Notes under the pieces: model-generated | Databases searched by the model: none | Told to the model about the DNA's origin: nothing | The model's input: only the letters and a program-made list of their open reading frames with translations | Assembly: GCA_046761065.1 (NCBI GenBank) | Contig: JBHIFL010000001.1 | Span: 64,001 to 128,000 of the forward strand | Source: Candidatus Heimdallarchaeota archaeon | GTDB lineage: Archaea > Asgardarchaeota > Wukongarchaeia > Wukongarchaeales > JBHIFL01 | Direction of reading: 5' to 3' | DNA length: 64,000 nt | Translations under genes and position numbers: made by a program | In this document: one piece after another, positions 18,565-20,379 of the stretch | Layout: each line of letters begins with the position of its first letter | How positions within the stretch are numbered: position 1 is the stretch's first letter

Positions 18565-19236
18565 TTAGATTGAAACTGTTTCGCCAGGTTTCAGAATCCT
18601 AACCTCCGCCGCTTCACCTACAAGCTTTTTGAACTCCTCCGCATCTTGTTCTATCGCCGGGAAGGTATTGAAGTGACAGGGAATTGCAATCTTCGGATAG
18701 AGCATCCGGATCGCTTCTGCAGCTTCCCTCGGTCCCATTGTGTACGTCGATCCAATCGGAATCAAAACGACTTTCGGCAAGTAGAGTTTCGCAAGGAGTG
18801 CCATATCCCCGAATACCGCAGTGTCTCCCGGAAAATAGATCGGGCCTTCTGAAAGGTGAACAATAAAGCCACAAGGCATACCCCTTTCACATGAATGGAA
18901 GGCTTGTGTAAATGTGATGGGAATATTTGTTGGGGTCACAACAGTCCCTCCAATATTGCCTCCAATCGCACATTTAACCCCACCCTTCTCTGCTTCGATA
19001 GCAAGCTCATGAACTCCTATAAAACATGCATCATGTTGTTTGCAGATTGTTGCCGCATCATTAAACCCGTGATCCTCATGATCGTGTGTAACGCAAACGA
19101 TATCCACCTGCTGGATTTCTTCTACGCTTTTAAATGGGTTTGTCGGGTTAGCCGTGATCCAAGGGTCAAACAGAACTACAACTTCACTTTCTACCATGAA
19201 TGCGGCATGGCCGAGCCAAGTGATTTTCATTATCAA
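18565..19236 (-). CDS. Metallo-beta-lactamase fold metal-dependent hydrolase (UPF0173-like)
   Basis: ITWLGHAAF, DPW, THDHEDH, GGNIGG, GDT, PIG..YTMGP.EA, IPCHFNTFP. Confidence 0.9.
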   Translation of the reverse strand: MIMKITWLGHAAFMVESEVVVLFDPWITANPTNPFKSVEEIQQVDIVCVTHDHEDHGFNDAATICKQHDACFIGVHELAIEAEKGGVKCAIGGNIGGTVVTPTNIPITFTQAFHSCERGMPCGFIVHLSEGPIYFPGDTAVFGDMALLAKLYLPKVVLIPIGSTYTMGPREAAEAIRMLYPKIAIPCHFNTFPAIEQDAEEFKKLVGEAAEVRILKPGETVSI

Positions 19237-19415: not shown

Positions 19416-19428
19416 AAAAGATTAATAA
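19416..19428 (+). promoter_or_regulatory. Putative BRE/TATA promoter of the permuted 5S rRNA gene
   Basis: aaaag-attaataa lies about 25 nt upstream of the terminal stem starting at 19452. Confidence 0.55.
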
Positions 19429-19451
19429 TTGAATTTAATTCACCATTACTC

Positions 19452-19610
19452 ACTGCAGTGGAGCCGAAAGATAAGCTCGTTTCCGTTCTTGAGTGTACTA
19501 CGCTGCGAGAGCGCGTGGGAAATCAGGGAAGCTACCATTTCTCTGAGGTGGTGGCCAGAGGGGCGAGGAAACTCCCGGTCTCATTCCGAACCCGGAAACT
19601 CCATTGCAGT
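19452..19610 (+). rRNA. rrf: 5S rRNA gene, circularly permuted (3' half 19470-19537, linker 19538-19548, 5' half 19549-19597) inside a BHB-like processing stem
   Basis: 5' half TGGTGGCCAGAGGGGCGAGGAAACTCCCGGTCTCATTCCGAACCCGGAA lies downstream of 3' half GATAAGCTCGTTTCCGTTCTTGAGTGTACTACGCTGCGAGAGCGCGTGGGAAATCAGGGAAGCTACCA. Rejoined, helices I-V all form and conserved CCGAAC, GAAG.UAAG, GUAC and GGGAAA are present. Flanks 19452-19463 and 19599-19610 pair. Confidence 0.92.
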
Positions 19611-19779
19611 CTATTTCTTCAATTTATTTCCCAAAAAGGGATTAGATGTTTTGTTTTTAACTGAATTTCAGAGGCTCATTAATAATAGGATCCAAATCAA
19701 TGGTTGAATGGCAGAATGAGATAGTTGTCCTTATCCAAAACTCCTAGTTTTATAACTTCACTTCGTCCTGTAGTTTTAG

Positions 19780-20379
19780 TCAATGTTCTGGAGGGATGGT
19801 TTCTATAATACCTCCTTTCTCTGGAGTGATGACTAGAACATCAATTCCATCCCCCGATGTAGCTTCTCGCCGTGAAGCCATCCGAATAGTCTCGATCACA
19901 AGTTCTCGTCCCTTATTTGTTGTGATATCAGTAAAATAGCCATCTTCAAGGACCCCAATAGCAATTTGAGCACCTGTTCCAGTTGCCGCATAGTCTTCAG
20001 CCATCAGACTCCCAATGGGATCCAATACATAAATATGGTTGCCTTTTTTGTCGGTCCCACCAACTATCGGTTCAACATAATATGGAAATATCCGGTTATT
20101 AAAAAGAACATTCGCCATGAGCTTTGCTGCAGTGCGGGTACCAATCATTTCCCCCTCTCGTTCCAAGTTATAGAGATTCACATAAGCCTTGATTAACCGA
20201 ACAATTTGCTGGGAGTCGCTGAAAAGTCCTGCCACTGCGGCTCCGATTCTTTCATCAACTAAAAACACTTTTCGAACATTTCTGGATTGGATGAACCTTC
20301 CTAATGCCATCCGTTTCTCCGCAGCTAGAACGACTCCATCAGTACAACTTAACCCTACAGCTGTTGCTCCTGCAATCAT
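19780..20379 (-). CDS. psmB: Proteasome beta subunit (probably non-catalytic type)
   Basis: GATAVG, DGVVLAAEKR, AGLFSDSQ, LDPIGS, ATGTGAQIAIGVLE, SGDGIDV. Confidence 0.93.
   Translation of the reverse strand: MIAGATAVGLSCTDGVVLAAEKRMALGRFIQSRNVRKVFLVDERIGAAVAGLFSDSQQIVRLIKAYVNLYNLEREGEMIGTRTAAKLMANVLFNNRIFPYYVEPIVGGTDKKGNHIYVLDPIGSLMAEDYAATGTGAQIAIGVLEDGYFTDITTNKGRELVIETIRMASRREATSGDGIDVLVITPEKGGIIETIPPEH

What the first reader, a model, noticed from the sequence alone, without database searches (positions are those of the whole stretch)
19452..19610. Circularly permuted 5S rRNA gene: 3' half encoded before the 5' half
Seen: 19470-19537 reads as the 3' ~68 nt of an archaeal 5S rRNA and 19549-19597 as the 5' ~49 nt, in swapped order with no overlap or gap. 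Rejoined (19549-19597 then 19470-19537) it gives a 117-nt 5S in which every helix forms: I UGGUGGC/GCUACCA, II GGGGCGAG/CUCGUU(U)CC, III UCCCG/CGG(AA)GA, IV CUACGC/GCGUGG with a GC-GAGA-GC tip, V UUCUUGA/UCAGGGA. The break falls at the conserved bulged AA of helix III. Established precedents for permuted genes are tRNAs (Cyanidioschyzon merolae, Thermofilum pendens) and the SRP RNA of Thermoproteus. I do not know of a described permuted 5S rRNA gene. Inference: this is a functional gene that standard rRNA finders would report only as fragments or miss.
Basis: partly seen in the sequence, partly recalled or inferred. Interest (0 to 1): 0.97.

Follow-up and report, generated by a model that had tools for sequence, protein, structure and literature searches.

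The report
Back-to-front 5S rRNA gene, ring-forming
This Asgard archaeon's only detectable 5S ribosomal RNA gene is written back half first between tRNA-splicing-type cut signals, and a public RNA data set from a near-identical relative contains exactly the predicted 128-base closed ring, so these close relatives of eukaryotes probably build ribosomes with a cut-and-rejoined, ring-shaped 5S RNA.

Summary
Confirmed. 19470-19537 is the 3' part and 19549-19597 the 5' part of a 5S rRNA. Rejoined, it scores 62.6 bits on a profile of ordinary Asgard 5S genes, against 23.9 in gene order, and folds into all five helices. It is the only 5S locus found in an assembly with complete 16S and 23S genes. [quoted passage not shown] DNA contigs of two other studies carry the same order, so it is no misassembly. 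One metatranscriptome contig from a near-identical relative is a closed 128-nt cycle joined at that cut, linker included, flanks absent. The layout recurs in 17 Asgard families. The genome encodes EndA and RtcB. Cut-and-join is about 90% likely; the ring being the ribosome's 5S about 60%. No paper found describes it. Nearest: the permuted circular SRP RNA of Thermoproteus; brown algal mitochondria have a differently permuted 5S. The scan found this layout before in many other Asgard genomes (53 notes).

The parts
19416..19428 (+). Putative archaeal promoter (purine-rich BRE followed by TTAATAA TATA-like box), about 25 nt before the stem
   Evidence: Read from the sequence; kept in L194; similarity to the relatives in runs X7 and X11 begins at 19419. 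Function inferred, start site not mapped.
19452..19463 (+). Leader: 5' arm of the 12-bp outer processing stem
   Evidence: Fold; own leader-trailer pairs give 5.1 of 6 pairs against 2.5 for swapped partners, 50 loci
19464..19470 (+). BHB 5' side: central-helix strand CCGA (19464-67) and 3-nt bulge AAG (19468-70); predicted cut 19469|19470
   Evidence: Sequence; RNA joint fits within its 2-nt ambiguity
19470..19537 (+). 3' part of 5S rRNA (end of helix III, helix II 3' strand, helices V and IV, loop E, helix I 3' strand)
   Evidence: RF00001 24.2 bits; Asgard half-profile E 7.5e-7 genome-wide
19538..19548 (+). Linker joining the native 3' and 5' ends; extends helix I to an 11-bp hairpin with a UCU loop
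   Evidence: Fold; lies inside the RNA cycle; identical in L194
19549..19597 (+). 5' part of 5S rRNA (helix I 5' strand, helix II 5' strand, helix III, loop C, bulged AA)
   Evidence: RF00001 19.4 bits; Asgard half-profile E 3.9e-5 genome-wide
19592..19598 (+). BHB 3' side: central-helix strand CCGG (19592-95, the 3' strand of 5S helix III) and 3-nt bulge AAA (19596-98); predicted cut 19597|19598
   Evidence: Sequence
19599..19610 (+). Trailer: 3' arm of the outer processing stem
   Evidence: L194 differs here by two bases
19610..19632 (+). T-rich tract, probable archaeal terminator
   Evidence: Read from the sequence; inference only
19470..19597 (+). Predicted and observed 128-nt ring
   Evidence: 158-nt contig of run X20 = 128 + 30 overlapping letters, joint 19595 to 19468 with 2 letters fitting either side

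Best explanation
A stand-alone, circularly permuted 5S rRNA gene. Step 1 (inferred): a precursor of about 160-180 nt is transcribed from a TATA-like promoter. Step 2 (shown by folding and comparison): leader and trailer pair and present the two gene ends as a relaxed BHB motif that borrows the 3' strand of 5S helix III as its central helix. Step 3 (inferred; enzymes present, joined product seen): the tRNA splicing endonuclease EndA cuts after the second base of each bulge and RtcB joins 19597 to 19470, restoring helix III and its bulged AA. Step 4 (seen as a contig in a relative): this gives a 128-nt closed ring in which a hairpin caps helix I. Step 5 (inferred): the ring is not reopened and is the 5S rRNA of the large subunit.
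For: RNA: run X20 holds one contig that runs 19534-19595, jumps back to 19468 and continues to 19563, a closed 128-nt cycle with the joint at the predicted cuts, the linker inside and no flank; three DNA runs show no such joint. Sole 5S locus, with full 16S and 23S assembled elsewhere. 52 loci of 17 Asgard families have this order; the central helix has 4 of 4 pairs in 41 and 3 of 4 in 10; rings are mostly 115-131 nt; rejoining raises the profile score in 52 of 52, median +35 bits. 39 of 45 consensus pairs show two-sided changes. The genome has a catalytic EndA subunit closest to crenarchaeal alpha subunits (E 7e-41; Tyr, His, Lys kept), a second subunit without the His, and RtcB. The helix I cap is a UNCG-type tetraloop in about ten of 17 families and I saw no second BHB there. 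The cap is also kept where the gene opens at another point. E. coli ribosomes work with 5S whose native ends are linked by 4 nt (PMC7283268). The same route gives a mature circular SRP RNA in Thermoproteus (PMC4731332).
Against: The RNA evidence is one assembled contig at depth 11 from one run whose RNA nature is a guess, from a relative (T19581C), not from this strain. Contigs show neither ends, levels nor ribosome association, and a graph cycle can be built from a mixture of linear species (cut but unjoined, plus joined and reopened). At this locus the BHB is imperfect (A-C in the central helix, no inner flanking helix) and the cap is an 11-bp hairpin with a UCU loop, not UNCG. Permuted tRNAs use the ring only as an intermediate. 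The assembly is 91% complete.
Confidence: 0.6

Rival explanations
1. Same cut and join, but the ring is an intermediate: a nuclease then opens or removes the helix I cap and gives an ordinary linear 5S of about 117-122 nt, as with permuted tRNAs.
For: Permuted tRNA genes work this way (cited in PMC4267664). Circular pre-16S and pre-23S are usually reopened in archaea (PMC12918454). Cap length and loop vary between families, and this locus lacks a UNCG loop. A contig cannot show a minor or major nick.
Against: The X20 contig is continuous across the cap at a mean depth of only 11 and has no flank, so cap-spanning molecules are unlikely to be a tiny share (the argument rests on my recollection that these assemblies drop words seen once). 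Extra-stable tetraloops cap helix I in many families, which is an odd thing to keep at a cut site.
Confidence: 0.3
2. The working 5S is the excised but unjoined, permanently permuted linear RNA (ends at helix III), as in brown algal mitochondria; rings are a by-product.
For: A permanently permuted 5S exists in brown algal mitochondria. Low-level 5S circles occur in Sulfolobus and Halobacterium and may be decay products (PMC3326292).
Against: The joint is present in the RNA contig at the predicted site. The predicted cuts restore the ordinary junction to the base in all families. Open ends would sit in helix III next to conserved loop C.
Confidence: 0.06
3. Misassembly, or a decayed tandem duplicate with the real 5S gene missing from the assembly.
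For: The assembly is 91% complete, 8% contaminated and in 234 contigs. Ordinary 5S genes exist in six other Asgard families.
Against: One contig spans the locus in run X1 (possibly the source), and relatives from two other studies plus L194 have the same order. Single-contig genomes (G003, G013, G023, G025, G073) show only split hits. The two parts neither overlap nor leave a gap. Pairs covary.
Confidence: 0.02

Closest known systems
Permuted, circular SRP RNA of Thermoproteus tenax (Plagens et al. 2015, PMC4731332)
   Same: [quoted passage not shown]
   Different: Here the RNA is a ribosomal RNA, and the layout spans 17 families of a phylum rather than two species. Ring as the final form is shown there, inferred here.
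Permuted tRNA genes (Cyanidioschyzon merolae; Thermofilum pendens, PMC3218864 listed, not read)
   Same: 3' half before 5' half, splice-type joining through a ring.
   Different: The tRNA ring must be reopened at the acceptor stem; 5S needs no free ends, and the RNA contig here keeps the linker.
Permuted mitochondrial 5S rRNA of brown algae (Valach et al. 2014, PMC4267664)
   Same: 5S rRNA permuted at gene level; helix I closed as a hairpin.
   Different: Ends lie at the three-way junction and stay open; no BHB, no ligation, no ring; organelle only.
Circular or post-transcriptionally permuted archaeal 23S rRNA (PMC12918454; PMC7758197)
   Same: BHB-directed excision and ligation of an rRNA; ring-shaped rRNA within ribosomes.
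   Different: Those genes are in normal order and circularisation joins the outer ends. That paper states that such processing is not known for 5S. Here ligation is needed to rebuild the core.
Low-level 5S circles in Sulfolobus solfataricus and Halobacterium (Danan et al. 2012, PMC3326292)
   Same: Circular 5S reads in archaea.
   Different: Normal gene, end-to-end joining, minor, not validated by RT-PCR.

Membership tests
5S rRNA (Rfam RF00001) | Score over the gathering cut-off as one collinear match | tested here: not met
   24.2 and 19.4 bits in two reversed pieces, cut-off 38; expected for a permuted gene
5S rRNA (Rfam RF00001) | Full-length match after rejoining | tested here: met
   HMM of 19 ordinary Asgard 5S genes: 62.6-64.1 bits over nearly the whole model against 23.9. 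Infernal itself could not be run on the rejoined sequence.
5S rRNA (Rfam RF00001) | Five helices in the three-armed fold, with covarying pairs | tested here: met
   Fold of rejoined sequence; 39 of 45 consensus pairs with two-sided changes in 17 sequences
5S rRNA (Rfam RF00001) | Part of the large ribosomal subunit | not testable with these tools
   uL18 gene present; no ribosome data
Archaeal BHB splicing substrates | Two 3-nt bulges around a 4-bp helix | tested here: inconclusive
   Both bulges and 3 of 4 central pairs present (A-C at the fourth); 4 of 4 in G001 and 41 of 52 loci; relaxed form
Archaeal BHB splicing substrates | Flanking helix | tested here: met
   12-bp outer stem; own pairs 5.1 of 6 against 2.5 for swapped partners; no inner flanking helix
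Archaeal BHB splicing substrates | Joint after the second base of each bulge | tested here: met
   RNA contig joint 19595 to 19468, plus up to 2, includes 19597 to 19470; near-identical relative, one run
Archaeal BHB splicing substrates | Cleavage by EndA and ligation by RtcB | not testable with these tools
   Genes present; no assay
Permuted genes with a circular mature RNA (Thermoproteus SRP type) | Ring is the predominant, functional form | tested here: inconclusive
   Closed cycle in an RNA contig; levels and ends not visible in contigs
Permuted tRNA-type genes (ring reopened) | Linker removed to give native ends | tested here: inconclusive
   Linker is in the contig; a reopened fraction cannot be excluded
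Brown algal permuted mt-5S (mtPerm-5S) | Ends at the three-way junction, left open, no splicing | tested here: not met
   Break is in helix III within a BHB, and the ends are joined

The most novel reading that the evidence does not exclude
Most Asgard lineages, the closest prokaryotic relatives of eukaryotes, carry an old circularly permuted 5S gene whose product is made only by tRNA-type splicing and sits in the ribosome as a covalently closed ring, with ordinary genes in some families arising by reversion.
Probability: 0.5. Interest if true: 0.95.

Novelty: new variant of a known kind. Interest (0 to 1): 0.88.

Why it matters
5S rRNA is in every cytoplasmic ribosome and is taken to be a linear, collinearly encoded RNA. 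A splicing-dependent, probably ring-shaped 5S would be a new route of rRNA maturation, would make the tRNA splicing enzymes essential for ribosome building, and explains why 5S genes could not be predicted in closed Heimdallarchaeum genomes (PMC8813620) and are not listed for Wukongarchaeum yapensis. Because eukaryotes have an ordinary 5S gene while Hod-, Heimdall- and Wukong-type Asgards sampled here have the permuted one, the state of this gene becomes a character for the eukaryote-origin question. It is testable in cultured Lokiarchaeia and fixes a blind spot in rRNA annotation.

Tried and rejected
Rfam at the cut-off finds nothing in the window. BLAST-type DNA search of 60 relatives gave mostly chance hits. 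No 5S was found in G002 in either order (92% complete, so no evidence of absence). The two + strand ORFs over the locus (19429-19707, 19458-19664) match no NCBIfam family and were rejected as genes. The sigma-70 promoter and terminator scan does not apply to archaea and gave chance levels. No holder of the stretch is on record as RNA; X20 is a guessed RNA run. My first profile held four reversed sequences and was rebuilt. In one search the start of G076 was mis-picked and G132 was missed, which slightly lowers the tallies. The RpoB tree is unrooted and poorly resolved at the base, and the one-clade test did not finish, so the direction of change is not shown. Six literature searches found no description of an archaeal permuted 5S gene; subscription journals are mostly not covered. 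Infernal could not be run on the rejoined sequence. Species-level naming of this genome was not achieved.

Full report
Observation. The locus lies on the + strand in a 543-nt gap between a metallo-beta-lactamase-fold hydrolase gene (18565-19236, minus) and a proteasome beta subunit gene (19780-20379, minus). Rfam finds nothing at its cut-off, but at relaxed E-values RF00001 matches twice in reversed order: the 3' part at 19457-19540 and model positions 28-51 at 19574-19597. I built a profile from 19 ordinary 5S genes of the same phylum. The 128 nt in gene order score 23.9 bits, the rejoined 117 nt 62.6, and the best rotation of the ring 64.1. Of 64 ways of joining the parts, the top score falls on 19597|19470 and its two identical equivalents. 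The rejoined sequence folds into the normal five-helix 5S.

The flanks pair: 19452-19463 with 19599-19610, 12 bp. Inside this stem lie a bulge AAA (19596-98), a central helix CCGA/CCGG (three pairs and an A-C) and a bulge AAG (19468-70). This is a relaxed bulge-helix-bulge motif. Cutting after the second base of each bulge, the established rule for archaeal EndA (from my own knowledge), releases 19470-19597, and joining its ends gives CCCGGAA|GAUAAG, the junction of ordinary 5S genes. The 11-nt linker extends helix I to an 11-bp hairpin. A TATA-like box lies about 25 nt upstream and a T-rich tract follows; both are inferences from sequence.

Not an artefact. Run X1, possibly the source, spans the locus in one contig. 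Runs X7 and X11, from two other studies, carry 19419-19600 and 19419-19622 in one piece with two differences, and in X11 the proteasome gene still follows. Metagenome contig L194 has an identical ring sequence with diverged surroundings. In the assembly these two parts are the only RF00001 matches and the only significant hits of the Asgard profiles, although 23S (C17) and 16S (C1) are assembled at full length and unlinked.

RNA evidence. Run X20 (library described as metatranscriptomic, RNA status guessed, a separate study) has one 158-nt contig on the locus. Its first 62 letters are 19534-19595 and the other 96 are 19468-19563. The two ends overlap by 30 letters, which is what a closed 128-nt cycle gives in a graph of 31-letter words. 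The joint (two letters fit either side) includes the predicted 19597|19470. The linker is inside the cycle, and no flank is present, whereas DNA runs of equally close relatives cover the flanks and show no such joint. X20 shares T19581C with X7 and X11, so it comes from a close relative and not from this strain. This shows the joined form and makes a ring very likely. It does not show how much of the RNA is ring, nor that the ring is in ribosomes.

Conservation. Among 151 genomes of the phylum, 49 have an RF00001 match over the cut-off, almost all in families f6, f10, f12, f16, f23 and f26; most others give split hits. Of 60 fetched regions plus G001 and the window, 52 loci of 17 families have the same order and break point. 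The central helix is perfect in 41 and has three pairs in 10. Own leader-trailer pairs give 5.1 of 6 pairs next to the motif against 2.5 for partners from other families. Rejoining raises the score in all 52. In a 17-sequence alignment 39 of 45 consensus pairs show two-sided changes. A pattern scan of 185,579 species genomes gave 70 hits, none continuing into an ordinary 3' part; the named ones are Odin-, Heimdall-, Hod-, Jord-, Frey-, Atabey-, Baldr-, Njord- and other Asgard records, apart from one contig filed under a bacterium that looks misbinned. Kin are not independent, so these counts describe spread, not 52 separate events.

The organism. Close homologues of a window protein are labelled Hodarchaeota or Heimdallarchaeota by their submitters, and RpoB groups it with the Hodarchaeales-type family f21 (98/97; no Wukong row in that tree). 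Its order-mate G002 has the size, contig number and quality published for Wukongarchaeum yapensis, so Wukongarchaeales is my inference. It encodes an EndA subunit closest to crenarchaeal catalytic alpha subunits with the Tyr, His and Lys kept, a second subunit lacking the His, and RtcB. That pattern suggests the (alpha-beta)2 type, known for accepting relaxed motifs (own knowledge).

Ring or reopened. For a permanent ring: the contig is unbroken at the cap; helix I is closed by UNCG-type loops in about ten of 17 families; the cap is kept in Lokiarchaeia genomes that open the gene at another point; and E. coli ribosomes tolerate linked native 5S ends (PMC7283268). Against: this locus has a UCU loop, permuted tRNAs and most circular pre-rRNAs are reopened, and contigs hide nicks. 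I put cut-and-join at about 0.9, ring as the mature form at 0.6, reopening at 0.3.

History. Ordinary and permuted states are interleaved on the RpoB tree (5 changes, at least 2 forced by strong branches; f23 ordinary is sister to f9 permuted at 100/100). The shared break point suggests one old origin with later reversions, but the tree is unrooted and this is not shown.

Comparison with what is known. It works like the permuted, circular SRP RNA of Thermoproteus (PMC4731332). It is not of the brown algal mitochondrial kind, the one described permuted 5S, whose ends stay open at the three-way junction (PMC4267664). Recent work states that excision and circularisation are known for archaeal 16S and 23S but not 5S (PMC12918454), and the closed Heimdallarchaeum genomes were published with 5S genes not predictable (PMC8813620); both of those genomes have permuted copies. 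Six searches found no paper on this gene layout in archaea. Earlier notes of this scan report the same layout in many other Asgard genomes; they are leads, not evidence. They pointed me to the SRP paper and raised the ring reading, which I then tested.

Verdict. Real, conserved, functional by all tests available, with direct though thin RNA support. New variant of a known kind; interest 0.88.

Noticed in passing
L081, L088, L121, L086, L090 (G131, G149, G082, G064, G048; family f9, Lokiarchaeia): A second permutation point: the gene opens at the 5' side of loop C, with a BHB-like motif that uses the 5' strand of helix III, while other f9 genomes use the same point as the window. Helix I is still capped by a short loop.
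   Followed up: partly
G000:C1:440-2273 (L250, outside the window): The 16S rRNA match spans 1834 nt against a model of 1478, so it holds about 350 extra bases (introns or expansion segments); 16S, 23S and 5S genes are all unlinked.
   Followed up: no
L066, L067, L068, L069, L070 (family f4, Heimdallarchaeum and kin): Two permuted 5S copies per genome; the central helix is perfect but the outer stem next to it is short or interrupted by a hairpin in the leader.
   Followed up: partly
L092, L094 (Atabeyarchaeia): The leader seems to carry an insert: the sequence that pairs with the trailer lies about 25 nt further upstream, next to a second copy of the helix-and-bulge motif, perhaps a nested intron.
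   Followed up: no
L128 and L155: Contigs filed under Deferrimicrobium (a bacterium) and Helarchaeota Hel_GB_A carry similar permuted 5S genes with unusual bulge sequences; possibly misbinned or another lineage.
   Followed up: no
L088, L090, L091, L076: 5S genes with inserts of about 30 nt (helix IV in G149 and G048, the helix I cap in G137, after helix III in the ordinary gene of G133).
   Followed up: no
L108 (G101, family f21): Permuted gene whose 5' part breaks off in loop C with no trailer; decayed copy or assembly join.
   Followed up: no
G000 whole assembly: ARAGORN finds only 19 tRNA genes, 16 with introns, in line with heavy use of the splicing enzymes.
   Followed up: no
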